Shown here: positions 5,136 to 64,000 of the stretch, in pieces | How positions within the stretch are numbered: position 1 is the first letter of the stretch | Layout of the letters: each line of letters begins with the position of its first letter | From: Thermodesulfobacteriota bacterium | GTDB taxonomy: Bacteria > Desulfobacterota_D > UBA1144 > Nemesobacterales > UBA2774 | Direction of reading: 5' to 3' | DNA length: 64,000 nt | Assembly: GCA_963422265.1 (NCBI GenBank) | Contig: OY729416.1 | Coordinates: 160,001 to 224,000 of the forward strand | Notes under the pieces: model-generated | Database searches by the model: none | Seen by the model: only the letters and a program-made list of their open reading frames with translations | What the model was told of the DNA's origin: nothing | Program-made: the position numbers and the translations under genes

Positions 5136-5141
5136 CTGTGA

Positions 5142-5627
5142 TTATTTAGGACTAGACAGGAAATTTTCTGCCCTATGAACCTGTTGCACAATATCCGTTA
5201 GCAATTCTCCAATAATGACGTCTTCATGAGAATAACCATATACTCCGGAGTGTGATGGATCGCCATAAGTATGGTCAGGTTTCAATTCGGGTTTGTATAG
5301 AATCTGTATTTTCCTCCTATCATCAGTCTCCGCTTTTACATATTCAATTGCTCTTTGCACGTTTATTATTGGCAGCCGGTCATTCTTTTTAACTTTTAAT
5401 TTATCTTTGTAGATATTTATTATATTTTGTACACAAACTTCTAGGTCTGTATTACCATCGTATTCAAGCCAATTCACCGACATATAATCTTCTTTAGGTC
5501 GCGGTAGTAACGCCTTTCCGTCTATTTTACCTCCGTTGTGAACAAGAGATTTCTTGACTAGTTTGGTTATATGTGACGTTGGTGGAAGTGGGTCGTTATC
5601 TTTCTCATTACCGACAAATCCATTCAT
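5142..5627 (-). CDS. Hypothetical protein, putative ART/Tse2-like toxin fold (third gene of TIGR04255 cassette)
   Basis: ATG at 5627 overlaps the 3' end of the upstream gene (ORF track 5672); motifs PRPKEDYMSVNWLEY and DPSHSGVYG; fold assignment is inference. Confidence 0.6.
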   Translation of the reverse strand: MNGFVGNEKDNDPLPPTSHITKLVKKSLVHNGGKIDGKALLPRPKEDYMSVNWLEYDGNTDLEVCVQNIINIYKDKLKVKKNDRLPIINVQRAIEYVKAETDDRRKIQILYKPELKPDHTYGDPSHSGVYGYSHEDVIIGELLTDIVQQVHRAENFLSSPK

Positions 5628-6243
5628 CAGCTCCCATGGAAACCACAACTTGGTAAAGGCGCTCTTTATCAATTGTCCCGGTAGAACGCATAACTTTTCC
5701 TGTGTTGTTAGGATTAGGTGTGAAAATTACGTAAGTGTTAGTATCGTCAGGGTTAAACTCTACTGCTAAATGCTGTATTCTTGACTTACGCCACAACGCT
5801 CTAATATTACCTTCGTAAGTAACAATAAAAGAAGGTATGATTAAATTATCGTTCTTTGTCAAGAAATCAGTAAAATTATTAAAGGATTCGAAACTTATTA
5901 TTTTTTGCTCCGTATCTTGATCATCTTCAATATCTTCAATTAATTCATAAGTTCTAGGGGTAATGTAATCATCAAAGTCAGGTCTTTCTCGATAAAGACT
6001 AAGCACCAAAGTTTTAATTCTTTTATGGCTATCTAGGTTGTCTTCCTCGATGTCTTTGTAATAGCCTAAACTTCTAAAAAGAGTAGAGTTCTCTTCTTCG
6101 TATACCTTGTAATAATTTGTTTTTAAATTTGTTTGGGGAGAGGCAGGTAATGTATCCAAATGAGTTGATACTCCAATACTAGGGGGAATGTTATTGTAGG
6201 ATATAGATCGGTTCTCCTTAGGCTCCACATCAGTTAAATTCAT
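5608..6243 (-). CDS. Hypothetical protein, putative antitoxin (second gene of TIGR04255 cassette)
   Basis: ATG at 6243 forms an ATGA overlap with the upstream stop; polar low-complexity N-half, then C-terminal domain ISFESFNNF..PSFIVTYEGNIRALW..LAVEF. Confidence 0.65.
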   Translation of the reverse strand: MNLTDVEPKENRSISYNNIPPSIGVSTHLDTLPASPQTNLKTNYYKVYEEENSTLFRSLGYYKDIEEDNLDSHKRIKTLVLSLYRERPDFDDYITPRTYELIEDIEDDQDTEQKIISFESFNNFTDFLTKNDNLIIPSFIVTYEGNIRALWRKSRIQHLAVEFNPDDTNTYVIFTPNPNNTGKVMRSTGTIDKERLYQVVVSMGADEWICR

Positions 6244-7010
6244 GAGACTTCCTTTTTCTCCCAATTAGTTTTTGTTGTATCACTATCAGTGAGTTTTTCA
6301 AAATTCTGCGTAAGCTGTTCGTGTACGTAATCAAACCAGTCGTTCATATTGTGGTTTGAGGAGTCAAACCCGCTCGCTCCATTTTCAAATACTATTATTT
6401 TTTGTTTCGTGTTCTTAAGTGTAGTTGTAAAGAGATTTAATTTGAATATTCCTTTCTTAGCATCCGGCAAATCATAGATATAATTTAAGTTAAAGTCTTT
6501 AACTTCTTGACCGCTTAAAGTTTCAGGGAAGTCAAGGCGTTTAATTATATCTGAAAGTTCCTTGGCTTCTCTAAAGTCAAAGTTTTCTTTTAAGTGGTTT
6601 ACATAATTGAATTCATATTTGAGCGGAGCAGGTTCATTAAAGCCTTTTTCTTTGAGGAATTCCAAGAATGATGAATAATTGTTGTTAAAGAGCCTGTTCA
6701 TTTCACTATATTCAGGATATTGGTCTTCTCCTTCCACCTTGCGCCAATTGCATAGGAAGCAGTTGTTTTGTATCTGAACTAGTTTATTTAGTGATTCTGT
6801 GATGAACCAAAACCTGGGCGCGGGGTATATTTCGCTATTGCTTTGAATAGGCTTGCCATAGTTGGTGGCTTGTTCGGATTTTGGATATTTATCAATGATC
6901 TTTTCCCAAAACAAACCGATGTGTTCAGAGCGCAGACCATAAATTGGGAGAAACTCTACGCCCATTACAACTTCAATTACCGGTGGTTTACTATATTTAG
7001 CAGTGTTCAT
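6240..7010 (-). CDS. TIGR04255 family protein
   Basis: YSKPPVIEVVMGVEF, HIGLFW, PRFWF, VQIQ..F..NWRK, YPEY, YVNHL pattern typical of TIGR04255. Confidence 0.8.
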   Translation of the reverse strand: MNTAKYSKPPVIEVVMGVEFLPIYGLRSEHIGLFWEKIIDKYPKSEQATNYGKPIQSNSEIYPAPRFWFITESLNKLVQIQNNCFLCNWRKVEGEDQYPEYSEMNRLFNNNYSSFLEFLKEKGFNEPAPLKYEFNYVNHLKENFDFREAKELSDIIKRLDFPETLSGQEVKDFNLNYIYDLPDAKKGIFKLNLFTTTLKNTKQKIIVFENGASGFDSSNHNMNDWFDYVHEQLTQNFEKLTDSDTTKTNWEKKEVS

Positions 7011-7159
7011 TATATCATTAAATACAAAGTAACTACGACTGTAGAATTATATCTATTGCTTAGTACAAGGCAAGTTAGGGCTAGCAATATATGGCATTTG
7101 AACACATAATACTTGTCAGAGGAATGATGTAAAATCCATGATAACAAAGCTATCAGAGA

Positions 7160-55221: not shown

Positions 55222-57132
55222 ATGAGAGTTCCTAAGCCCAATGATCTATTAAGATTGCTAAGAAATTCAGGCAATCGACCTATGAGATTCAAAGAGATTT
55301 CGGCGCGTCTAGGCATTTCTGAAGAAGCTAAGCATGTAATCAAAAAGATTCTCAAAGAAATGGTAAGCAACGGCAAACTCAGGAAGGTGCAGGGGGGTAA
55401 ATATGTGACTTCCGAGTATAAAAACAAGAAGAAAAGTGATGTCGCGTTTCCCTCAAAACCGATAGTGGGATTGATGAAAGGGGATAGGATTCTTGGCAAG
55501 TACATCAAAACGGGCAAGACGGGAAAGCTTGTGCCGAAAGACGAGAAGTTGCCGAGTTTAGAGCTTCTGCCGGATGAGATTAAGAATTTAAGGAACAATA
55601 GCATAATTGTGGCTGAGTTGGGCAAAAAGCTTTCAAAGACGCGCCAATTGCAGGGGAGCGTCGTGGACATTCTAGGAAAAGTGGGAGATATGGAAGCGGA
55701 AAAGAGGGCTTTACTGGTTGAATATGACCTCCCTTCCGCATTCTCCCCAAAGTCAATGAGAGAATTGGAGGAAGTGTTAGGAGAAATTTCCCAAAGCGAG
55801 ATAGAGAGAAGGGTTGATCTGAGAAAAGAAACAATATTCACTATTGATAATGAAAATGCGAAGGATTTTGATGACGCGGTAGGTATCAAGAAGACTAAAA
55901 ACGGCTATAAACTCTATGTGTCTATCGCTGACGTTTCTTATTACGTCATTCTAGGGAGTAAGTTGGACAACGAGGCGTTTAATAGGGCTACTAGCGTTTA
56001 CCTTGCGGATAGCGTGGTGCCAATGCTTCCCGAGAGGCTTTCAAATGATTTATGCAGTTTAGTTCCTTATAAAGATAGACTCACAAAGACGGTTGAGATT
56101 AACTTTAATTTCAAAGGGGAGATGCTACGCTCCAAAATATACGATAGCGTGATTAGAAGCTCTGCAAGGACTACTTATAAATACGTTGCGGATACTCTTG
56201 AAAAGAGGGGTAGGGTATCAGATGCGGAAAAGCAGATAATCACAAAGCTAAAACTTATGCGGGAGCTTTTCAAAAAAGTAAGGTCGCGAAGGGTTGAGGC
56301 TGGAGAGTTGTTTTTTGACATACCAGAGCCTGAGCTTGTAAGGAATGAGCGGGGAAAGATCGTTGACGTCGTAAAGGCGGAGAGGAATCTGGCTCATGAG
56401 ATGATTGAGGAATTTATGATAGCCGCTAATACCGCCGTTGCGAATTTCGTATTTAGCTCAAACGCCTCCTCCCTTTACAGAATACACGAGCCGCCCGATA
56501 GGGAAGTGTTGGTTGAGTTGTCCGAAGCTTTAAGGAAGTTGGGTTATACAATGTCTGTAAACGGCTCTGCGAGCGCCTTTGAAATCCAGGAAGTTGTTGA
56601 AAAAAGCAAGAACAAGTTAAACAAGGTCGCCGTTAATATGCTGATACTCCGCTCGCTCAATAAAGCCGTTTACTCGACTTTAAGGCATGGCCATTTTGGG
56701 CTAGGTCTCGAGCATTACACCCACTTCACCTCTCCTATAAGACGCTATCCAGATTTAATCGTGCATAGAATAGTAAATTCTTTATTAGAGAGAAAATCCC
56801 TTCCTTACAAAAAAGATTCGCTCGATTGGATAGCCGAGCATTCTTCTAAGAAAGAAAGGATTGCAACTACCATTGAAAGGGAATCTATCAACCTTGAAAC
56901 GGCTTATCTAATGAAATCTCACGTCAATAAGGAATTTGAAGGAACCGTAATAAGCGTCTTGCCATTCGGTATATTCGTAGAGATTGAAGATATATACGTT
57001 GAAGGCTTGATTCCCAGAGAGAGCGTTAAGGATTGGAGAAAACGCTGGTTTAACGTAGGGCAGAGGGTAAGGGTAAAAGTCGTGAACTCGGATATAGAGA
57101 AGAGAAGAATCACGCTTAATTTAGCGAGATAG
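55222..57132 (+). CDS. rnr: Ribonuclease R (RNB family)
   Basis: TIDNENAKDFDDA, IADVS, EEFMIAAN, HFGL..YTHFTSPIRRYPDL, S1 domain; ATG 55222 (ORF track 55177). Confidence 0.93.
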   Translation: MRVPKPNDLLRLLRNSGNRPMRFKEISARLGISEEAKHVIKKILKEMVSNGKLRKVQGGKYVTSEYKNKKKSDVAFPSKPIVGLMKGDRILGKYIKTGKTGKLVPKDEKLPSLELLPDEIKNLRNNSIIVAELGKKLSKTRQLQGSVVDILGKVGDMEAEKRALLVEYDLPSAFSPKSMRELEEVLGEISQSEIERRVDLRKETIFTIDNENAKDFDDAVGIKKTKNGYKLYVSIADVSYYVILGSKLDNEAFNRATSVYLADSVVPMLPERLSNDLCSLVPYKDRLTKTVEINFNFKGEMLRSKIYDSVIRSSARTTYKYVADTLEKRGRVSDAEKQIITKLKLMRELFKKVRSRRVEAGELFFDIPEPELVRNERGKIVDVVKAERNLAHEMIEEFMIAANTAVANFVFSSNASSLYRIHEPPDREVLVELSEALRKLGYTMSVNGSASAFEIQEVVEKSKNKLNKVAVNMLILRSLNKAVYSTLRHGHFGLGLEHYTHFTSPIRRYPDLIVHRIVNSLLERKSLPYKKDSLDWIAEHSSKKERIATTIERESINLETAYLMKSHVNKEFEGTVISVLPFGIFVEIEDIYVEGLIPRESVKDWRKRWFNVGQRVRVKVVNSDIEKRRITLNLAR

Positions 57133-57280
57133 GTATAATTAGGAGAGGTGGTTTGGCACAGAGTTAAGGTATCTCGTTGTGTTAACGTGGCGAAATTTAA
57201 GTAGTCAGCTTGAAATTTAACAGGTATTTATCCGTCTCTTAAAAGGCTTTTTAGGCGAGGTTAAAGCATGCTAAATATAA

Positions 57281-57323
57281 ATCCCCCTTTAGAAAAGGGG
57301 GATACAGGGGGATTTGATCTTTA
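57281..57323. repeat. REP-like element (CCCCCTTTAGAAAAGGGGG..GGGGGATTT)
   Basis: Near-copy of 29507-29547. Confidence 0.8.
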
Positions 57324-57622
57324 TCTTTTTAATCATAGCCTACTATCATGTAATCCCAGAAATCACAGTTCAGACTTTCCCCTCTTCCCAAACCATCTTT
57401 CAACCCGTAAATACTAACGGGTTTAAACTGTATTGTAATTTTTATTTAGATTCAAAAACTAAACCAAAGGATTTAGATGAATGGCGGTGTTCTTTGGACG
57501 AAGTTTGAACTTTCTTTGAACAAAACCCCCAATAAGGAAGCCCGCCCCATCCCCCTTCCTTTTTGCCCGCCTACTTGGGCTTCGCCCCCAAAACTTTTCG
57601 GTGGGACGGTGGGACTATGAAA

Positions 57623-59932
57623 CTAAAAATTCTTCTCCAAAATTTCAAAATGCTTCGGGTCTGATTTTTTTACAATATTCAATAAAATCTTGATCGCGTC
57701 TTTGCTTTCGCCTTTATCTTTATGCTCGATTGTGCTTGTTGGATTGGAATTGTGAGAAAAGTCATTGACCAACTTGTATGCTTTGCCCGCGTCAACATTG
57801 CTAATTTTCTCATCTGGATCATTGATATTTTTGATAAATACTCCCATTTTAGACTTTTGATCACCCGTTGTCGGTATCTTGAAATCTGCAAAAATATCAA
57901 AAAATCTTCTCGCCATATTTCCAACCGTATAAAAATCTTCATATTGAGTGTCTTGTTTTTCTGAAAATTCCTTGAGCTTGGCAAATAAAAAGTGATATTC
58001 GGATTTATAATTTTGCAGAGTTTTATCAAGCTTAACAATTTTTGCTTTTCTCACATCTGATTCAGTAAAATTTTCTACCATGAAAAACTCGCAAGGAATT
58101 GGTTTTTTCGTTGAATTGTTTTTATTGATAAACCATTCTTTAACCAAGTTGAAAAGCTGAAAATTGTGCGTAGAGATAAAAAGTTGCCCCACTTCTTTGA
58201 AATGTGTGTTTATCATTGAAAAACAGTGATAAATGAAGTTTGAGTCAAAGCTGGAGATTGGATCGTCAATAAAAATAATTCCTTTTGATTTATCAAAATC
58301 GCCTTCGCCAACTTTTACGACAAAATACGAAAAAGCAATTGCGGTTTTTTCTCCTTCGCTCAAATTTTTTGCTGGTTTCCCATCTCTTTTTATTGTGTAA
58401 CCCTTGTTATCTCTATCCAATGCAAGTTCAATCTCTTTTCTGCCGAAAAATTCTTTCAGATGTTTGTTGATAGATGCAATCGCCTTACCAATGTCTGAAA
58501 CTTGTTTTTCAAGTTTTTCAATATCTGAATTATTTTTATTGACCGCGTTTTGAGCTTCTGTTTCGTTTCTCAATGCTTTTTCTAAATCAGTTCCCATTTT
58601 TTTATAGTCCTGACCCGCTAAAGCAGTCGCGATTGAATTCAATTCAAGTTTTTCGCGGGCAATTGAAACCTCGTTTTCGTGATTACTTGCTTTCTCATTA
58701 TGCTCTTCAATAATTTTGTTCAGTTCCAAAATTTCGCCATTGTACGATGATAAAAAATCTTCTGGCTGTGCGGGGCTTGAAATATTGGCAAGTGGGTTGT
58801 CGTATTTTTCCTGAAGTGATTCTGTCGCTTTGTCAATCCAAGTATTTATTTTTTTGATAACTTCGTTAAGATCCTTTGCCTTGCTGATGTATCTCTCTTT
58901 TAGATCGGGGTAAAGTTTATTATTTTCCGTTGGGATCTCTAGTCGTTTTATTTCTAAAATTTCACTTTTTAGACTTGTGATTTCGCTTTGTAGGGCTTCA
59001 TAGTCTTTGCTGAAATGTTTTGAAAGTGTAGCTAAAAAGTCATTTTCGAGTGGTTTTTGGCAAAATAAACATTTTTCTTTTTCTTCTTTTGTTTTGTGTA
59101 AATCAAAACCTTGTTTCACCCAACTATTCAAAACTTGATCGTCTTTTAATCTATCTAGCGTTTCCGAAACAACTTTTTTGCCAAGCAAAGCTACAATTTT
59201 TTCAAAAGTCTTTTGAAAATTATCGACGGTTTCGTCATCAAAAGAAAAAGAAAAGTTATATTCTGAAAATGCGGTTTGCGTTTCGCCCGCTTCGCTTTTA
59301 CTTATTACCTCATATTTTTTCTTATCTTTGTCATATAGGCTTTTGTCGGAAAAATTATCAACACCGATAGAATTGATTTTATTTTCTGCTTTTGTCTTGT
59401 TATACGACTTGTCAAAAAGAATATTCGCGATTTCTCGCCCGAGACTAGTTAGAAAAGTATTTTTTGTTTCTTCTTTTGCCGATTTGTCTTTTTTCTTCTG
59501 TTCGTATGATTTGCAAAGAGTAATTTTACCTAGTTTCAACTGTTCAAGCCGTTTTTTACTCTCAATATCTTCTTCGCTCACATAAATAATCGGATTGCAT
59601 GAATCAGAAGGATCAAAGGAAATGTTGTCATCTATAAAATCTTGATTGAAAATTTTTATCGGCAAAACATTTGTGGCGACATCAGTATTTTTTACAGTAG
59701 TTCCGTCATTGGTTTTTATTTCAAACTCTCCATTTTCGGGGTATTGCTTGAATTTATCTTTGTCGTAAGTGCATTTTTTCTCACAGCTCGCAAGAACGCG
59801 AGAAATTGTAGTTTTTCCACTTCTATTCCAGCCATATATCAGATTGAATTTTTTGAAATCAGAAAGCTCTTTTTTCCAAGTAAAATCATGAAATATGCCG
59901 AAGTTTTTGAGTTTTGATATTTTGCTGATCAT
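57623..59932 (-). CDS. rloC: RloC-like AAA_13 ABC-ATPase with zinc hook and C-terminal HEPN-type anticodon nuclease
   Basis: GWNRSGKTT, coiled coil with CLFC hook, LSEGE, IDDPISSFD, STHN; GNMARRFF and VNDFSH; directly downstream of type I R-M genes. Confidence 0.75.
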   Translation of the reverse strand: MISKISKLKNFGIFHDFTWKKELSDFKKFNLIYGWNRSGKTTISRVLASCEKKCTYDKDKFKQYPENGEFEIKTNDGTTVKNTDVATNVLPIKIFNQDFIDDNISFDPSDSCNPIIYVSEEDIESKKRLEQLKLGKITLCKSYEQKKKDKSAKEETKNTFLTSLGREIANILFDKSYNKTKAENKINSIGVDNFSDKSLYDKDKKKYEVISKSEAGETQTAFSEYNFSFSFDDETVDNFQKTFEKIVALLGKKVVSETLDRLKDDQVLNSWVKQGFDLHKTKEEKEKCLFCQKPLENDFLATLSKHFSKDYEALQSEITSLKSEILEIKRLEIPTENNKLYPDLKERYISKAKDLNEVIKKINTWIDKATESLQEKYDNPLANISSPAQPEDFLSSYNGEILELNKIIEEHNEKASNHENEVSIAREKLELNSIATALAGQDYKKMGTDLEKALRNETEAQNAVNKNNSDIEKLEKQVSDIGKAIASINKHLKEFFGRKEIELALDRDNKGYTIKRDGKPAKNLSEGEKTAIAFSYFVVKVGEGDFDKSKGIIFIDDPISSFDSNFIYHCFSMINTHFKEVGQLFISTHNFQLFNLVKEWFINKNNSTKKPIPCEFFMVENFTESDVRKAKIVKLDKTLQNYKSEYHFLFAKLKEFSEKQDTQYEDFYTVGNMARRFFDIFADFKIPTTGDQKSKMGVFIKNINDPDEKISNVDAGKAYKLVNDFSHNSNPTSTIEHKDKGESKDAIKILLNIVKKSDPKHFEILEKNF

Positions 59933-59934
59933 AT

Positions 59935-62379
59935 TTATATCTCGCTTAAAACATCGGAAATTTTTTGTTCCATTATTTCAATCAATTGTTTGTTTGCGTT
60001 GATTATTTGTTGTTCTTTTTCCGCTTCGGCAACAAGTTTTTTCTGAATTTCCAAGGTCGGAAGCGGAATTTTTAGTTTTTGCATTTTACTTTTTGACACT
60101 TCCCCAAAAGTTCCACCTGTTGCCAATGCTTTCATCTCATCAATTTTTGAAGTCATGCACATAGCGACAAAATAAGGCAATGCTTTTGACGTATCATTAA
60201 CAATGATGTTTTTAAATCCTTGATTTGTTGCTGTTTGTTCTTTTGCAATAGCAACTCGTCCGATTGTTGCACGAGAAGAAACTAAAATTGATTCTTTTGG
60301 CAATAATTTTGCTGAAGATTTTGAAAGTCCTAATTCCGTTATTTTACGCTTTGTTTCTTTAAGTTCTGTAATATAATCGTCTTGAGGTAAATCAACAAGT
60401 GTTGCCCAATTTATTTCACCATTCCAATAATCTTTATTGTTTGTATCTGGTGTGCCTCCCGATTCAATTTTAAAAATATTTTCATTCCCCAATTCCACCC
60501 ACTCAACACCTTCTAATTTTCTAAGTGCCTGACCAAAATATCGTCTCTCTCTCCCTAGATTTTGGATAATGGCTTTGGCGTGATCTATGGCGTTTTGCTT
60601 GACTTCAATCTGTTCAACGATTTCTTTTTGGACTTCAATCGGCGGAAGTGGGATTTTGATTTTTGAATATTCTGAAATCCAGTATCGCTTATGTGTATCG
60701 TGATTAAACTTTATGTCCTGCATGGCATAAAATAAAAATTCTGTATCGGCTTTCTCTCTTTTTGTATGCAAGATCTTCATCGCAGATGATTTAACCTTAA
60801 AAGGAAAGTCAACAAACTTTGTTGCGGTTGTAAAATCATCAAAAATAATGACTGGTAGATTTTTTGCTGGGAATATGCCTTCGGTTTCGTCTGTATACCC
60901 CAAAATAAATGTTTGGCCAGCAGTCAAAACAGGAGTTTTGTATTCGTCGCTATAATTAACGGACTCCACAATATATTTTGTTGGTTGTTCGTATTCTAAA
61001 ACTTCACCTAACTCTACCATTTCCCATTTTTGATTAGCAAAATTTGTTATCTCTTTATATCTATCCCCCGAAAGATTGTAATCACCTGTCGCAATTATTT
61101 TTTCTTTGGCAACAATATGAGCGATTTGCTTTTCGTCTTCACTAAATTTTTTATCATCAAACGATGATTTATATTTCTTGATAACTTCCAATGCCAAAGG
61201 CAAATCGTTTTTGCCATTTTCCCGCCTTTGCGCGCCTAAATCAAAACCGTCATTTTGAATTTTCACAAATAAAAAGTTTTTTGTTTTCTTTGAAATCTCA
61301 TTATCAAAAAGTAAAACACTGGTTTTTACTCCTGCATAAGGATTAAAAACGCCCGCAGGAAGCGAAACAACTGCAAAAAGTCCGTCTTCGACTAATTGTT
61401 TACGCAATTGTTTATAAGCATTGCTTGATTGAAAAATTATTCCTTCGGGAACAATAATTCCAGCCCGCCCTTTAATTGTTAAATGCTCAACAATATAATC
61501 TACAAAAAGCACTTCGGCTCGATTGGCTTGGATACTAAATCGCTTGTGTGGACGAATCCCGCCTGTCGGAGTCATAAATGGCGGATTGGCGAGAACAACA
61601 TCAAAAGTTTCTTCCCAACGCTTTTCGCTTGTCAGTGAATCATACTCGTGGATTTTTGGCTCTTGGAATCCGTGCAGATACATATTCACAAGTGCCAATT
61701 TCACCATATCTGGCGAAATATCGTAGCCCGCAAGATTATTCATCAATTTCAATTTTTCGTCTGGTGTGAGCGGTTTTTCTTTATTGGTTTTCAAAATATG
61801 TTTATAGGCGGAAATCAAAAATCCAGCCGTTCCGCAAGAGGGATCAAGGATTGTTTCATTTTTCTTTGGATCAACCACCTCAACAATAAAATCAATAATG
61901 TGGCGAGGTGTGCGGAATTGCCCGGCGTCGCCTTGGCTCCCGAGAATGGAAAGCAAATATTCAAAAGCATTTCCTAAGTTTTCGCTGTGTTCGTAATTAA
62001 ATTCGTTTATCTCTTTGAGGAAGAGTGAAAGCGTGTGAGGGTCGTTGTATGGCAAAAACGCACCTTTGAAAATATCACGGAACAATTGCGGAATATGCGG
62101 ATTTTTTGACATATTCGTAATTGCCTGAATATACAGATCAAGGCGTTCTTTTCCTGAAAGTTTGTTGTCCAAAATTTTCGTCCATGAAAACTTTTTCCAA
62201 TCATCAATGAAAAATTGAGTTTTTAATCCAACCTCTTCGTTTTCCTTATCCATGTCATCCATAAACTTATAGATAAGAGCAGTTGTGATTTGCTCAACCT
62301 GTGCTTTTGGATCAGGAACTTTACCAACAAGGATTTGCCGAGCGGAGTCAATTTTTCGTTTTGTAGTTTGATCAAGCAT
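59935..62379 (-). CDS. hsdM: Type I R-M fused HsdM-HsdS (MTase plus two TRDs)
   Basis: GQFRTPRH, DPSCGTAGF, NPPF; then two S half-repeats (WEMVELGE...IPLPPIEVQKEIV; WVELG..GGTP...IPLPTLEIQKKLV). Confidence 0.9.
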   Translation of the reverse strand: MLDQTTKRKIDSARQILVGKVPDPKAQVEQITTALIYKFMDDMDKENEEVGLKTQFFIDDWKKFSWTKILDNKLSGKERLDLYIQAITNMSKNPHIPQLFRDIFKGAFLPYNDPHTLSLFLKEINEFNYEHSENLGNAFEYLLSILGSQGDAGQFRTPRHIIDFIVEVVDPKKNETILDPSCGTAGFLISAYKHILKTNKEKPLTPDEKLKLMNNLAGYDISPDMVKLALVNMYLHGFQEPKIHEYDSLTSEKRWEETFDVVLANPPFMTPTGGIRPHKRFSIQANRAEVLFVDYIVEHLTIKGRAGIIVPEGIIFQSSNAYKQLRKQLVEDGLFAVVSLPAGVFNPYAGVKTSVLLFDNEISKKTKNFLFVKIQNDGFDLGAQRRENGKNDLPLALEVIKKYKSSFDDKKFSEDEKQIAHIVAKEKIIATGDYNLSGDRYKEITNFANQKWEMVELGEVLEYEQPTKYIVESVNYSDEYKTPVLTAGQTFILGYTDETEGIFPAKNLPVIIFDDFTTATKFVDFPFKVKSSAMKILHTKREKADTEFLFYAMQDIKFNHDTHKRYWISEYSKIKIPLPPIEVQKEIVEQIEVKQNAIDHAKAIIQNLGRERRYFGQALRKLEGVEWVELGNENIFKIESGGTPDTNNKDYWNGEINWATLVDLPQDDYITELKETKRKITELGLSKSSAKLLPKESILVSSRATIGRVAIAKEQTATNQGFKNIIVNDTSKALPYFVAMCMTSKIDEMKALATGGTFGEVSKSKMQKLKIPLPTLEIQKKLVAEAEKEQQIINANKQLIEIMEQKISDVLSEI

Positions 62380-62390
62380 AATATTTTTGG

Positions 62391-64000
62391 TTACCTCATA
62401 TAAACATTAACCGGCACATAATCTTTAACATAAGTAGGTACAGTTTCCCGCCAGCCGTTCAATTGCTTAAACTCTGCCATTGTAAATCCAGCAAATTCTC
62501 TCGGAAATCGTTGATTATTTATTTCATTTCTGAAATATTCGCTCGTAACATACGCTTTCAGATAATTTTTGATATGCGGAACATATTTGCTTTCGGGCTT
62601 GTAGATTGAGATAAACTTTTCGCATTCTTCTTCCAATTTTTCGTCTTTGGATTTGAAAACATCAATCAAGCCAAAAGCTCGTTCCAAAAATTCACGCCAA
62701 GAAATACGGCGATCAAGATTTTCGCTCTTGCGGATTTTTTCAAGATTGAGGAATAATTGCGGTTTGTCTTCGTATTTGTCGCGCATAATTTGCACGGCTT
62801 TGTCCCATTGCTCGTTTTCAACGGCTGATTTTACTTCCGTATCTTTTTGCAATTCTTCGCGGGCTTTTTCAAAAAGTTTACGATCAACTTTCATTCCCTC
62901 GATTCCGACAGGTGTTTCAGTAAGCGTTTTTACTTTGTCGGGATTAAATATTTCTATTTCATCAATATCAACGCCGACAGACCCTTCTCCACCTGTTCCT
63001 TTTTGTTTGATTGGCAATTGCAAAACCTCGTCATAATCAAATTTTTCTTCAAAGTATTCGCAGTTTGCGAAGAAATCGAAAAATTTGAAATGCTCTTTGG
63101 TTGCTTTGTGTTTCTCGCCGTCTTCGTCGGTATATTCAAAAGTGAATTTTCTTGTTCCTCGTCCTTTAATCTGAATAAAATCAGTCGGCGAAAAGACGGG
63201 ACGCATAAGCGCAAGATTCAAAATATCTTGGCAGTCATAACCAGTCGTCATCATTCCGACAGTTACGCAAACCCTCGTTTTACTGGATTTGTAATTTTCC
63301 AAAAACTTGGTGTGTCCGTTCAGGTTGTTGTTGGCAAAGTTTATCGTCATTTGCTGGGAGTTCTGAATGTTTGAGGTGATTTGCACGGCAAAATCTGAAT
63401 TGTATTTGTCGGGACAAAGCTTGCTCACCATTTTATTAAGCGTTTGGGTAATTTTTGAAGCGTGCTTTTGGCTAACGCAAAATATAATGCTTTTGCCAAT
63501 TTCACCACTTATTGGGTCTTTGACGGCGTTTTCAATAAATGTCTGGCAAAAGACACGATTTGTTTTTTCGGAAAAGAATTTCTTTTCAAAATCCTTTTGG
63601 AAAAATGTTCCTTCGCTTTCTCTGCCTTCTTCATCTTCAACCATAACCGCATAACCTTTTTCGGATAGCAATTTGGTGGTGATGTCGGTTCGCGCGTCTG
63701 AAACAATAAGATTTATCAAAAACCCTTCTCGCACACCGTCAAGCAAGCTAAAACGGAAAGTCGGCTCGACGTTTTTACAACCAAAAGTCGTGTAAGTGTC
63801 CAAGAGTTGTCGTCTTTCCCAAGCTCGCGGGTCTTTCTGTGAAAGTTTTTGCGGATCAACATTTTTCAAATAATCTTTCGGCGTTGCGGTTAAGCCCAAT
63901 TTATAGCCGATAAAGTATTCAAAAACCGCGCGCGAGTTTCCACCGATTGCTCGGTGGCTCTCGTCAGCAATAACTAAATCAAAATCAGTCGGCGAGAAAA
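62391..64000 (-). CDS. hsdR: Type I restriction subunit HsdR (EcoEI/EcoAI-like), 5' part outside window
   Basis: Frame open to the window edge: FDLVIADESHR..GLTATP; KSIIFC, MMTTGYD, QIKGRGTR. Confidence 0.9.
   Translation of the reverse strand, partial: FSPTDFDLVIADESHRAIGGNSRAVFEYFIGYKLGLTATPKDYLKNVDPQKLSQKDPRAWERRQLLDTYTTFGCKNVEPTFRFSLLDGVREGFLINLIVSDARTDITTKLLSEKGYAVMVEDEEGRESEGTFFQKDFEKKFFSEKTNRVFCQTFIENAVKDPISGEIGKSIIFCVSQKHASKITQTLNKMVSKLCPDKYNSDFAVQITSNIQNSQQMTINFANNNLNGHTKFLENYKSSKTRVCVTVGMMTTGYDCQDILNLALMRPVFSPTDFIQIKGRGTRKFTFEYTDEDGEKHKATKEHFKFFDFFANCEYFEEKFDYDEVLQLPIKQKGTGGEGSVGVDIDEIEIFNPDKVKTLTETPVGIEGMKVDRKLFEKAREELQKDTEVKSAVENEQWDKAVQIMRDKYEDKPQLFLNLEKIRKSENLDRRISWREFLERAFGLIDVFKSKDEKLEEECEKFISIYKPESKYVPHIKNYLKAYVTSEYFRNEINNQRFPREFAGFTMAEFKQLNGWRETVPTYVKDYVPVNVYMR

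What the first reader, a model, noticed from the sequence alone, without database searches (positions are those of the whole stretch)
5142..7010. AT-rich, translationally coupled TIGR04255 / antitoxin-like / ART-like triad: candidate undescribed tripartite toxin-antitoxin or anti-phage system
Seen: three co-oriented genes with overlapping stops and starts (ATGA at 6240-6243; a 20-bp overlap at 5608-5627). They look clearly AT-richer than gyrB and nuoH and sit between those two core genes, ending 6 bp from the gyrB stop, with no mobility gene. Known: TIGR04255 is a sporadically distributed family of unknown function. Toxin-antitoxin-chaperone systems such as CmdTAC combine an ADP-ribosyltransferase toxin, an antitoxin with an unstructured chaperone-addiction segment, and a chaperone that senses phage protein. 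Inference: gene 3 (..PR..EDYMSVNWLE..DPSHSGVYG) looks like a small ART/Tse2-like fold. Gene 2 has a long polar, probably disordered N-terminal region plus a compact C-terminal domain, as an addicted antitoxin would. TIGR04255 could be a non-SecB chaperone or sensor, making this a TAC-analogous system with reversed gene order.
Basis: partly seen in the sequence, partly recalled or inferred. Interest (0 to 1): 0.75.

Follow-up and report, generated by a model that had tools for sequence, protein, structure and literature searches.

The report
Three-gene toxin-antitoxin module, new ART-fold toxin
A small AT-rich insert between gyrB and nuoH carries three coupled genes that look like a previously undescribed toxin-antitoxin or defence module, whose likely toxin belongs to a new family with the fold of ADP-ribosyltransferases.

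Summary
Three minus-strand genes (g1 6240-7010, g2 5608-6243, g3 5142-5627) overlap by 4 and 20 nt. They are 35.9% GC against 44-47% for the flanking genes. They fill a ~2 kb insert that is absent from all 9 same-family relatives whose loci I examined.

- **g1:** passes the TIGR04255 model. g2 and g3 match no curated family.
- **g3:** founds a large unnamed family (874 clusters at 50% identity). With 138 sequences it folds at pLDDT 95. Its structural neighbours are almost all ADP-ribosyltransferase (ART)-fold proteins: Tpt1/KptA NAD lobe Z 7.3-7.8, CC0527, Tse2 and DarT.
- **g2-g3 pair:** adjacent in 76 of 78 loci from many phyla. A complex model passes (0.85 against a best control of 0.02).
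- **Gene 1:** variable. It is TIGR04255 in 22 loci, an unrelated ~225-aa family in 31, and not recognised in 23. Every g2 with a gene-1 partner carries an N-terminal extension; 18 of 30 partnerless copies are core-only.
- **TIGR04255 elsewhere:** it precedes PIN, HNH and HTH-type gene pairs.

Best reading (~0.6): a tripartite toxin-antitoxin or defence module, with an ART-fold toxin, a direct-binding antitoxin and a swappable accessory. Toxicity, target and phage defence are untested.

The parts
7046..7073 (-). promoter-like site (TTGCCT, 16 nt, TATAAT) 36 nt upstream of the g1 start
   Evidence: Consensus scan, 10 of 12 matches. The scan found 12 such sites in the region against 7.8 expected, so this is a candidate only.
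6240..7010 (-). g1: TIGR04255 family protein, 256 aa; the optional first gene of the module
   Evidence: TIGR04255 46.6 bits against a cut-off of 30. No Pfam, PADLOC or PDB-sequence match. It is the only TIGR04255 match in the genome. Homologues sit immediately upstream of g2 in 22 of 76 loci.
5992..6243 (-). g2 residues 1-84: variable, polar N-terminal extension
   Evidence: Not conserved across the family. 65% polar residues. An extension is present in 53 of 53 g2 copies with a gene-1 partner and absent in 18 of 30 without one.
5608..5991 (-). g2 residues 85-211 plus stop: conserved core domain, the predicted antitoxin that binds g3
   Evidence: Core conserved in 84 sequences, with R97 and S120 invariant. 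Complex model with g3: ipSAE 0.85, 0.85 and 0.83 against a best control of 0.02; partner pLDDT 88; R97 lies in the interface. Weak partial hits to the C-terminal part of PADLOC PDC-M32A.
5142..5627 (-). g3: 161-aa ART-fold protein, the predicted toxin/effector; founding member of an unnamed family
   Evidence: 874 representative clusters at E<=1e-3. AF2 pLDDT 95.0, pTM 0.89. VIA-align: Tpt1/KptA C-lobe Z 7.3-7.8, CC0527 6.3-6.6, Tse2 5.9, DarT 5.2-5.3. S50 invariant; H19, R/K22, R43, E46, N52, W53, E55, P113, D123, S125, H126 and G128 conserved.
5136..7159 (.). the inserted block between the convergent gyrB and nuoH ends
   Evidence: About 2,030 bp here against about 70-500 bp in 9 of 9 same-family relatives examined. 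GC 35.9%.

Best explanation
The block is a horizontally acquired, translationally coupled toxin-antitoxin-type conflict module, possibly an abortive-infection defence.

- **g3 (effector):** a small enzyme with the ADP-ribosyltransferase fold from a new family. It most likely uses NAD+ to ADP-ribosylate a macromolecule or to break down NAD+. Nucleic acid is my first guess for the target, because the nearest folds are Tpt1/KptA, CC0527 and DarT. Either action would stop growth.
- **g2 (antitoxin):** its conserved C-terminal domain binds g3 directly and keeps it inactive.
- **g1 (accessory):** the variable N-terminal extension of g2 is the handle through which the first gene acts. That gene is TIGR04255 here and an unrelated ~225-aa family in other lineages. 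It would stabilise or sense through g2, so that loss or titration of g1 frees g3.

Shown: the gene anatomy, the insertion, the fold, the pair's co-occurrence, and the link between extension and partner. Predicted only: g2-g3 binding. Inferred: toxicity, NAD chemistry, the target, the role of g1, and any link to phage.
For: **Anatomy and origin**
- 4-nt and 20-nt overlaps with Shine-Dalgarno sequences.
- Low GC.
- An insert absent from 9 of 9 relatives examined; g3 found in 0 of 24 same-family genomes.

**g3 fold**
- pLDDT 95 with 138 sequences.
- In the search of 48,161 PDB representatives that does not rely on Foldseek, the top rows are KptA (Z 7.5), mouse Tpt1 (6.7), Tse2 (5.9), DarT (5.2, 5.2), VPA0770 toxin (5.1) and CC0527 (5.1).
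- Nearly all 50 rows are ART-type proteins by title or by my recall. These include pertussis toxin, LT, ParT, MbcT, RES, Scabin, Tne2, diphtheria toxin and the PARPs. The clear outlier is eIF4E at rank 43.
- In the second look, 15 Tpt1, CC0527 and DarT entries score Z 5.3-7.8, then the list drops to 3.4.

**g2-g3 pair**
- Adjacent and co-oriented in 76 of 78 loci from Proteobacteria, Desulfobacterota, Acidobacteriota, Chloroflexota, Nitrospinota, Binatia, Latescibacterota and Nitrosopumilaceae. The 2 exceptions are cut by a contig end.
- The order is antitoxin first, toxin second, as in most type II systems (from my own knowledge).
- Complex model 0.85 against a best control of 0.02. That mark was reached by 116 of 157 solved complexes and 2 of 215 mismatched pairs. 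The runs agree in at least 95% of contacts and the partner pLDDT is at least 87.
- Diverged tandem arrays of the pair: up to 4 copies in L064 with g3 50-59% identical; 3 copies in L034 at 44-48%.

**Gene 1**
- TIGR04255 in 22 loci, the c0 family in 31, mostly with 4-nt overlaps.
- g2 is at least 189 aa in 53 of 53 partnered copies and 145-163 aa in 18 of 30 unpartnered copies.
- In genomes with the triad, the triad copy is the only TIGR04255 (2 of 2). In 3 genomes with other forms there is none.

**TIGR04255 elsewhere (28 published gammaproteobacterial loci)**
- 19 have a co-oriented gene within 30 nt downstream.
- Third genes include PIN (L108, L111), HNH (L116, L110), g3 (L114) and an unnamed 250-270-aa family (12 loci). 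An HTH-bearing second-gene family occurs in 10 loci.

**Conflict-type surroundings in some loci**
- Anti-phage-associated DUF1156 protein (L011 scanned; L025 and L027 by blastp clustering with it), MzaE-like AIPR protein (L064), MntA (L052), integrase (L042 scanned; L055 and L065 by blastp clustering with it).
- A RefSeq-annotated TIGR04255 triad sits between the lysis genes and the terminase of a Pantoea prophage.
Against: - No structural match reaches Z 8, the level the tool calls safe, and Foldseek gives no E<=1e-3. The fold assignment rests on the consistency of the list, not on one strong hit.
- There is no sequence-level link to any ART family: no Pfam, NCBIfam or PADLOC hit; hhalign against 3 KptA sequences gives probability 0.2; no PDB sequence hit.
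- The catalytic motif does not match a canonical H-Y-E, R-S-E or H-H-h triad that I could verify. I had no residue-level superposition.
- The H-H-h clade nearest by fold is described as mainly RNA repair, small-molecule modification and production of soluble ADPr derivatives (PMC9503650, passages). Such enzymes need not be toxic.
- The window protein has K22 and Y111 where most of the family has R and H.
- Only R43 is both conserved and in the predicted interface, so occlusion of the active site is not shown.
- g3 relatives were not found on 72,556 plasmids or 50,697 phage records with one query.
- The window's own surroundings are housekeeping genes, not a defence island.
- In one public run (X4) a contig carries a frameshifted g1 and a g2 frame that runs into g3. 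If real, g1 is dispensable in that strain.
- The 78 loci were picked through two g3 motifs and are the best 80 of 112 hits, so they are a biased sample. My gene calls use the first start codon and my own HMMs.
Confidence: 0.6

Rival explanations
1. g3 is a non-toxic NAD-dependent enzyme of the Tpt1/CC0527 kind (RNA-end repair, small-molecule modification or production of an ADPr-derived signal). g2 is its regulatory or substrate-presenting subunit, so the module is a niche metabolic or repair function rather than a conflict system.
For: - The closest folds are the Tpt1/KptA NAD lobe and CC0527.
- The H-H-h clade is described as mainly RNA repair, small-molecule modification and soluble ADPr derivatives (PMC9503650, passages).
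- Four related gammaproteobacterial loci have a PEP-synthase / rifamycin-phosphotransferase-like gene 91 nt upstream.
- No relatives on plasmids or phages with one query.
Against: - g3 lacks the N-terminal RNA lobe of Tpt1; only residues 84-181 of the chains align.
- No 2H, macro, ligase or Nudix partner was seen next to it.
- The patchy distribution, foreign GC, diverged tandem arrays and interchangeable first genes shared with PIN and HNH cassettes are typical of conflict systems.
- The four PEP-synthase loci share wider synteny, so they count as one event.
Confidence: 0.15
2. The functional unit is only the two-gene g2-g3 toxin-antitoxin pair. g1 (TIGR04255) is an independent gene, for example a regulator or a separate effector, that happens to travel in front of such cassettes and does not act through g2.
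For: - g2-g3 occurs without any recognised first gene in 23 of 76 loci, and as bare tandem arrays.
- 12 loci have a long g2 but no recognised partner.
- A contig of run X4 has a frameshifted g1.
- No test of g1-g2 contact was possible.
Against: - 4-nt start/stop overlaps between gene 1 and g2 here and in many loci.
- The N-terminal extension is present in 53 of 53 partnered g2 copies and absent in 18 of 30 unpartnered copies.
- Two unrelated families occupy the same position.
- TIGR04255 is followed by a tightly coupled gene in 19 of 28 published loci.
Confidence: 0.12
3. g3-g2 is an interbacterial effector-immunity pair of the Tse2-Tsi2 kind, with g3 exported to kill neighbours and g2 protecting the producer.
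For: - Tse2 is the third-best structural neighbour (Z 5.9, 104 residues aligned, rmsd 3.2).
- Other secreted ART toxins with immunity proteins are in the list: TreX, Tne2, Rhs toxins.
- Diverged tandem arrays resemble immunity or effector arrays.
Against: - No secretion-system, PAAR, VgrG or Rhs gene was seen beside the pair in the neighbours I scanned.
- g3 is essentially always a stand-alone ~140-150 aa protein: only 1 longer form was found, and the tool rates that search as weak evidence.
- The protective gene lies upstream and overlaps the effector.
- The pair occurs in Nitrosopumilaceae archaea and Dehalococcoidia.
Confidence: 0.06

Closest known systems
Tpt1/KptA RNA 2'-phosphotransferase (NAD-binding C-terminal lobe)
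   Same: Best structural match. Nine entries score Z 7.3-7.8 with 91-101 residues aligned at rmsd 2.6-4.1, covering g3 residues ~8-155 and the whole C-lobe 84-181. By eye, KptA 'LYHGT ... R-x-x-V-H-L-S' (sequences) resembles g3 'D-H-V-x-R ... R-x2-E-x-Y-L-S-V'; this is inference.
   Different: No Pfam PF01885 hit and no profile-profile signal. g3 lacks the N-terminal RNA lobe that, from my recall, carries most of the catalytic tetrad. g3 has its own invariant residues (S50, W53, E55, H126) and an obligate partner, g2.
DarTG (DarT ADP-ribosylates ssDNA; DarG macrodomain antitoxin)
   Same: A two-gene toxin-antitoxin with a small ART-fold toxin. DarT structures score Z 5.2-5.3. DarT's activity on thymidine in ssDNA is stated in the abstract of PMC8501950 (search listing).
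   Different: No DUF4433 or macro-domain hit in g3 or g2. The gene order is antitoxin first. g2 is predicted to act by binding, not shown to reverse a modification.
CmdTAC and other toxin-antitoxin-chaperone (TAC) systems
   Same: A three-gene module with an ART effector, an antitoxin carrying an extra segment, and a third protein that controls the antitoxin. In CmdTAC the chaperone CmdC senses capsid protein and its loss leads to degradation of CmdA and release of the mRNA ADP-ribosyltransferase CmdT (PMC11618068, abstract). TAC antitoxins carry a chaperone-addiction element recognised by a SecB-like chaperone (10.1101/2024.02.24.581848, start of abstract in the search listing).
   Different: g1 is TIGR04255, with no SecB-like Pfam hit. 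The extension is N-terminal and the accessory gene comes first. The accessory is replaced by an unrelated family in 31 loci. I could not compare g3 with CmdT directly. A chaperone or sensor role for g1 is untested.
Tse2-Tsi2 (Pseudomonas aeruginosa T6SS effector and immunity protein)
   Same: Tse2 is the third-best neighbour in the wide structural search (5ako_D, Z 5.9). It is a small ART-like fold neutralised by a directly binding partner.
   Different: No sequence similarity and no secretion context. The g3 family keeps a strongly conserved polar constellation.
CC0527 (Caulobacter crescentus structural-genomics protein)
   Same: A small stand-alone protein of similar size scoring Z 6.3-6.6 over 97-98 residues.
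   Different: No sequence match, and the function of CC0527 is itself unknown. That it belongs to the ART superfamily is from my recall, not from a call.
PADLOC candidate PDC-M32 (two genes, A and B)
   Same: The g2 core gives weak hits to the C-terminal part (positions ~250-350 of 375) of two PDC-M32A models. Five of the 128 proteins in a mixed scan set (45 of them g2) matched, best E 6.1e-6; the window's own g2 scored E 0.0077.
   Different: The hits are partial and weak, and g3 hits nothing in PADLOC. PDC-M32 has no known function; it appears in 1 paper, passages read.

Membership tests
TIGR04255 (NCBIfam) | Whole-protein score above the curated cut-off of 30 bits | tested here: met
   g1 scores 46.6 bits, E 3.8e-12, covering model positions 1-245 of 252.
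ADP-ribosyltransferase (ART) superfamily | ART-type split beta-sheet fold | tested here: met
   Model at pLDDT 95. The top matches and nearly all 50 rows of the wide search are ART-type proteins, best Z 7.5. Fifteen ART entries score Z 5.3-7.8, then the list drops to 3.4. All Z values are below 8, so this is a fold-level call based on consistency.
ADP-ribosyltransferase (ART) superfamily | One of the canonical active-site triads (H-Y-[EDQ], R-S-E or H-H-h) on strands 1, 2 and 5 | tested here: inconclusive
   Conserved H19 and R/K22 on or after strand 1, Y48 and invariant S50 on strand 2, and H126 on strand 5. This fits none of the three triads exactly, and I had no residue-level superposition. 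The clade names come from PMC9503650 (passages).
ADP-ribosyltransferase (ART) superfamily | Binds NAD+ and transfers or releases ADP-ribose | not testable with these tools
   Needs biochemistry.
Tpt1/KptA (Pfam PF01885) | Match to the family model; two-lobe architecture with an N-terminal RNA-binding lobe | tested here: not met
   No Pfam hit; hhalign probability 0.2 against 3 KptA sequences. g3 is 161 aa and aligns only to chain residues 84-181.
DarTG | DarT (DUF4433) toxin with a macrodomain antitoxin | tested here: not met
   No Pfam hit for g3 or g2. 84 g2 relatives scanned and none hit a macro family. Fold similarity to DarT is only Z 5.2-5.3.
TAC / CmdTAC | SecB-like chaperone as the third component | tested here: not met
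   No SecB-like Pfam family in g1 or in 22 relatives at E<=0.1.
TAC / CmdTAC | Antitoxin carries an extra segment that makes it depend on the third protein | tested here: inconclusive
   The N-terminal extension co-occurs with a gene-1 partner: 53 of 53 partnered copies against 12 of 30 unpartnered. No binding or stability test was possible.
Type II toxin-antitoxin systems (general) | Small adjacent co-transcribed genes whose products form a complex | tested here: inconclusive
   Adjacency and overlap are met. The complex is only predicted: 0.85 against a best control of 0.02, a mark reached by 116 of 157 solved complexes and 2 of 215 mismatched pairs.
Type II toxin-antitoxin systems (general) | Toxin arrests growth; antitoxin neutralises it | not testable with these tools
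   Needs expression experiments.
Tse2-like T6SS effectors | Delivered by a T6SS; encoded with T6SS or VgrG/PAAR genes | tested here: inconclusive
   No such neighbour among the flanking genes I scanned, but not all neighbours were scanned.

The most novel reading that the evidence does not exclude
TIGR04255 and the unrelated ~225-aa 'c0' family are interchangeable first genes of a broad, undescribed class of accessory-dependent toxin-antitoxin or defence systems that do not use SecB. The accessory would act through a disordered N-terminal extension of the antitoxin, as stabiliser or infection sensor. The effector slot is swappable: a new ART-fold family of ~870 clusters (50% identity), PIN, HNH, and an unnamed 250-270-aa family.
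Probability: 0.35. Interest if true: 0.85.

Novelty: new variant of a known kind. Interest (0 to 1): 0.72.

Why it matters
- It would give a first functional context to TIGR04255. That model is used to name genes, yet my full-text search found it in no paper (0 papers).
- It would define a new, widespread ART-fold family of 874 clusters (50% identity). The members I looked up are named only 'hypothetical protein'. ART toxins have repeatedly revealed new chemistry on DNA and RNA, as with DarT and CmdT.
- The link between the antitoxin's N-terminal extension and two unrelated first genes suggests that 'addiction' of antitoxins to an accessory protein has evolved more than once, outside the SecB-based TAC systems.
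- The idea is directly testable with a three-gene, 1.9-kb construct.

Tried and rejected
**Searches and models that gave nothing usable**
- A first AF2 run of g3 with 8 sequences was useless (pLDDT 37.5).
- Foldseek against the PDB gave no E<=1e-3.
- BFVD gave no E<=1e-3. The best was an unnamed 149-aa viral protein at E 2.6e-3, probability 0.99, but rmsd 12.
- Profiles of g3, g2 and g1 against PDB sequences returned only chance-level rows.
- The ESM Atlas returned only unnamed clusters for g3. For the g2 core the best clusters are unnamed and partly viral. tblastn of a g2 core against 50,697 phage records found nothing.
- hhalign of the c0 family against TIGR04255 gave probability 0.2-0.3, so no detectable relation.
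- hhalign of g3 against 3 KptA sequences gave no signal. KptA itself is rare in the genomes sampled: 1 of 120 and 2 of 151.
- tblastn of a Pseudomonas g3 found no match in plasmids or phages.
- A TIGR04255 query found one plasmid record and no phage record.
- A search for fused or longer forms of g3 found one 290-aa protein; the tool calls this weak evidence.
- I found no flanking direct or inverted repeats for the insert and no terminator-like site after g3.

**Sequencing runs**
- No RNA holder is listed for the stretch. One run guessed to be RNA holds short contigs over parts of all three genes, which shows nothing about expression.

**Earlier findings of this scan**
- Nothing by place, sequence or word.

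**Literature**
- 'TIGR04255' appears in 0 papers and 'PDC-M32' in 1 paper.
- Two combined-term searches found no description of this system.
- I opened no supplementary files.

**Ideas rejected**
- A link to rifamycin ADP-ribosyltransferase Arr, suggested by the rifamycin-phosphotransferase-like neighbour. Arr is not among the listed structural matches, and the four loci are one syntenic lineage.
- g3 as a HEPN-type RNase, from an R-x5-H spacing in the family consensus. The fold is alpha/beta, and the His is Tyr in the window protein.
Full report
**Observation**

- g1 runs 6240-7010 (256 aa).
- g2 runs 5608-6243 from its ATG (211 aa).
- g3 runs 5142-5627 from its ATG (161 aa).

The g1 stop and g2 start share ATGA at 6243-6240. 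The g3 ATG lies 20 nt inside g2. GGAG-type ribosome-binding sites precede both internal starts.

gyrB ends 6 nt from the g3 stop, and nuoH lies on the other side. The block is 35.9% GC, against 44.3% for gyrB and 46.9% for nuoH, and is the 32nd lowest of 622 equal-sized windows. A promoter-like site sits 36 nt upstream of g1.

In 9 of 9 same-family relatives whose loci I examined, the convergent gyrB and nuoH ends are about 70-500 bp apart, against about 2,030 bp here. g3 was found in none of 24 same-family genomes and in 4 of 16 same-order genomes. The block is therefore a sporadic insert. I found no repeats at its borders.

**What the proteins are**

g1 passes the TIGR04255 model at 46.6 bits against a cut-off of 30. 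Nothing else in Pfam, PADLOC or PDB sequences matches it. g2 and g3 match no Pfam or NCBIfam family.

g3 has few close relatives: 7 besides itself. A profile search, however, finds 874 representative clusters (50% identity) at E<=1e-3, nearly all 140-150 aa. The names I could retrieve are all 'hypothetical protein'.

The family has one invariant residue, S50. A conserved polar set surrounds it: H19, R22 (K in the window protein), R43, E46, Y48, N52, W53, E55, H111 (Y here), P113, D123, S125, H126, S127 and G128.

**Fold of g3**

With 8 sequences AF2 failed (pLDDT 37.5). With 138 sequences it gave pLDDT 95.0 and pTM 0.89. Foldseek found nothing at E<=1e-3, but its best rows were Tpt1/KptA.

The aligner that does not depend on Foldseek compared the model with 48,161 PDB representatives. 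Its top rows were:
- KptA, Z 7.5 (93 residues aligned, rmsd 2.8)
- mouse Tpt1, Z 6.7
- Tse2, Z 5.9
- two DarT entries, Z 5.2
- VPA0770 toxin, Z 5.1
- CC0527, Z 5.1

Below these the list is made almost entirely of ART-type proteins. They include CopC/OspC3, PltA, TreX, Tne2, Scabin, pertussis toxin, NarE, MbcT, RES, pierisin, CARDS, diphtheria toxin, LT, ParT, SdeA and the PARPs. The one clear outlier I recognise is eIF4E at rank 43.

A second look at Foldseek's top 1,000 gave nine Tpt1/KptA entries at Z 7.3-7.8 over the whole NAD lobe (chain residues 84-181), CC0527 at 6.3-6.6 and DarT at 5.3. The next row drops to 3.4.

No single Z reaches 8. I rest the fold call on this consistency and on the coverage of the whole domain. 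That several of these entries are ART-fold is partly my recall of the literature, not a tool result.

At sequence level there is no link: hhalign against three KptA sequences gives probability 0.2. By eye, the KptA motifs 'LYHGT' and 'R-x-x-V-H-L-S' resemble g3 'D-H-V-x-R' and 'R-x2-E-x-Y-L-S-V'. This is an inference. The conserved H126 on the fifth strand fits none of the three canonical triads named in PMC9503650 (passages).

**The conserved unit**

A motif scan of one genome per species found 112 relatives, and the best 78 distinct loci were kept. With iterated local HMMs, g2 lies immediately upstream of g3 on the same strand in 76 of 78 loci. The two exceptions start at a contig end.

The hosts span Gamma- and Alphaproteobacteria, Desulfobacterales, Acidobacteriota, Dehalococcoidia, Binatia, Latescibacterota, Nitrospinota, Rhodothermales and Nitrosopumilaceae.

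Some Dehalococcoidia carry two to four tandem g2-g3 pairs that have diverged. In L064 g3 is 50-59% identical between copies, and in L034 44-48%.

A complex model of g3 with g2 residues 85-211, using my own alignments, scored 0.85, 0.85 and 0.83 against a best control of 0.02.
- That mark was reached by 116 of 157 solved complexes and 2 of 215 mismatched pairs.
- The runs agree in at least 95% of contacts, and the partner pLDDT is at least 87.
- The interface includes the invariant g2 residue R97 and g3 residues 25-38, 43, 78-82, 100-102 and 137-145.

This supports binding but does not show it.

**The first gene is modular**

TIGR04255 homologues sit directly upstream of g2 in 22 of the 76 loci. 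My HMM found 20, and NCBIfam added L016 and L017.

In 31 other loci the same position is filled by a ~225-aa family ('c0'). It usually overlaps g2 by 4 nt, matches no library and shows no detectable relation to TIGR04255.

In the remaining 23 loci neither family was found. Four of these (L003, L028, L044, L074) have yet another 205-236-aa co-oriented ORF abutting g2.

g2 length tracks this. All 53 g2 copies with a TIGR04255 or c0 partner are at least 189 aa. Of the 30 copies without one, 18 are 145-163 aa, which is the conserved core alone. The N-terminal part of g2 is not conserved in sequence.

TIGR04255 is not supplied from elsewhere in the genome. In two genomes with the triad, the triad copy is the only match. 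In three genomes with other forms there is no match at all.

**TIGR04255 in other contexts**

In a sample of 401 gammaproteobacterial genomes, 49 have a TIGR04255 match. Four of the 49 are unpublished genomes; without them the figure is 45 of 397.

I examined the best 30 loci and leave out two from unpublished genomes.
- In 19 of 28, a co-oriented gene starts within 30 nt downstream.
- The commonest arrangement is an HTH-bearing second-gene family of ~190-250 aa. It forms a 10-locus cluster, and 5 of its members have Pfam HTH hits at E<=1e-3.
- That gene is followed by an unnamed 250-270-aa family, found in 12 loci.
- Other third genes are PIN (L108, L111), HNH (L116, and L110 after a gap), g3 itself (L114) and a ~200-aa family (3 loci).

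A RefSeq-annotated example lies in a Pantoea plasmid-borne prophage, between the holin, lysozyme and spanin-like genes and the terminase. Its order is TIGR04255, a 189-aa protein with weak g2-core similarity (E 3.3e-6), then a 149-aa protein that my g3 model does not recognise.

TIGR04255 therefore looks like a general first gene for diverse toxin-antitoxin-like cassettes.

**Surroundings**

Some g2-g3 loci lie next to defence-type or mobile genes:
- an anti-phage-associated DUF1156 protein (L011 by family scan; L025 and L027 by blastp clustering with it)
- an MzaE-like AIPR protein (L064)
- MntA (L052)
- tyrosine recombinases (L042 by family scan; L055 and L065 by blastp clustering with it)

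I did not test enrichment statistically. The window's own neighbours are housekeeping genes. One g3 query found no relatives on plasmids or phages.

**Mechanism proposed**

I read the block as a toxin-antitoxin-type conflict module.
- g3 is an ART-fold effector that uses NAD+ against a cellular or viral macromolecule, or depletes NAD+.
- g2 neutralises it by direct binding through its core domain.
- g1 acts through the g2 N-terminal extension.

The parallel is CmdTAC. There a chaperone senses capsid protein, and its loss destabilises the antitoxin and frees an mRNA ADP-ribosyltransferase (PMC11618068, abstract). The parallel extends to TAC systems with a chaperone-addiction element (10.1101/2024.02.24.581848, start of abstract).

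Here the accessory is not SecB-like, it comes first in the operon, the extension is N-terminal, and the accessory family is swappable. The steps stand as follows:
- Shown: anatomy, insertion, fold, co-occurrence, and the link between extension and partner.
- Predicted: g2-g3 binding.
- Inferred: toxicity, chemistry, target, the role of g1, and any link to phage.

**Against this reading**

- All structural Z values are middling.
- The active-site pattern is non-canonical.
- The nearest clade is better known for RNA repair and small-molecule work than for toxins (PMC9503650, passages).
- The predicted interface overlaps the conserved set only at R43.
- The loci are a motif-selected sample.
- My gene calls are crude.

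One public run (X4, contigs at depth ~20) carries a one-base insertion that truncates g1 at residue 39. It also carries a two-base insertion that puts g2 (from residue 179) into the g3 frame, giving one 367-aa open frame. If real, g1 is dispensable in that strain. It could equally be a decaying copy or an assembly error.

Another strain (X6) keeps all three genes, with ~1% divergence and a two-base deletion that leaves an open 159-aa g3 frame.

**Novelty**

ART toxins in toxin-antitoxin and defence systems are known (DarTG, ParST, CmdTAC), and so are three-part systems. New here are all three protein families in this role, the interchangeable first gene, and a functional context for TIGR04255.

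I found no paper holding 'TIGR04255' and no description of the system in two combined-term searches. I opened no supplementary files. Catalogues of predicted toxin-antitoxin pairs may list the g2-g3 pair under another label.

Noticed in passing
window 56750-62400: A second AT-rich stretch (32.5-36.4% GC in 1.5-kb windows) holds two large adjacent minus-strand ORFs. The 814-aa ORF (59935-62379) matches type I restriction-modification M subunits over residues ~60-450 and S subunits over ~450-810, so it looks like an M-S fusion. The 769-aa ORF (57623-59932) has no PDB sequence match.
   Followed up: partly
L001:4555-5217, L018:4578-5261, L038:4602-5273 and 28 more loci: An unnamed ~225-aa family ('c0') takes the place of TIGR04255 directly upstream of g2 in 31 loci. 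It has no Pfam, NCBIfam or PADLOC match and no detectable relation to TIGR04255. In L066 and L067 it is split into two ORFs.
   Followed up: partly
L064:2887-6414; L034:5573-10004; L041; L043: Dehalococcoidia carry two to four tandem copies of the short g2-g3 pair. In L064 four pairs follow a 621-aa protein with a weak MzaE/AIPR match.
   Followed up: partly
window 5709 and 6896 (run X4); 5603 (run X6): Contigs of a related strain (X4) carry a 1-base insertion that truncates g1 at residue 39, and a 2-base insertion that joins the g2 frame to the g3 frame (367-aa open frame). Another strain (X6) has a 2-base deletion near the g3 start that still leaves a 159-aa open frame. These come from single assembled contigs and were not checked on raw reads.
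   Followed up: partly
L101, L106, L107, L109, L113, L117, L118, L124, L126, L127: The commonest TIGR04255 context in sampled Gammaproteobacteria is a different triad: TIGR04255, an HTH-bearing ~190-250-aa protein, then an unnamed 250-270-aa protein (the last family is also in L103 and L105). By eye, the N-terminal regions of these second genes share a short G-[ST]-G motif.
   Followed up: partly
L131:3983-5831 (NZ_CP118267.1, Pantoea sp. Lij88 plasmid): An annotated TIGR04255 gene with two coupled hypothetical genes (189 and 149 aa) sits between the lysis cassette and the small terminase of a prophage, a position where accessory genes are often found.
   Followed up: partly
L049:2240-4957, L058:2195-4987, L073:2378-5074, L059:2-1000: In four syntenic gammaproteobacterial MAG loci, a ~900-aa PEP-synthase / rifamycin-phosphotransferase-like gene ends 91-103 nt upstream of a long g2.
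   Followed up: no
BFVD entry A0A9E7QQI2: The best viral structural match to g3 is an unnamed 149-aa protein (Foldseek E 2.6e-3, probability 0.99, TM 0.43-0.46, but rmsd 12). It might be a phage-borne relative.
   Followed up: no
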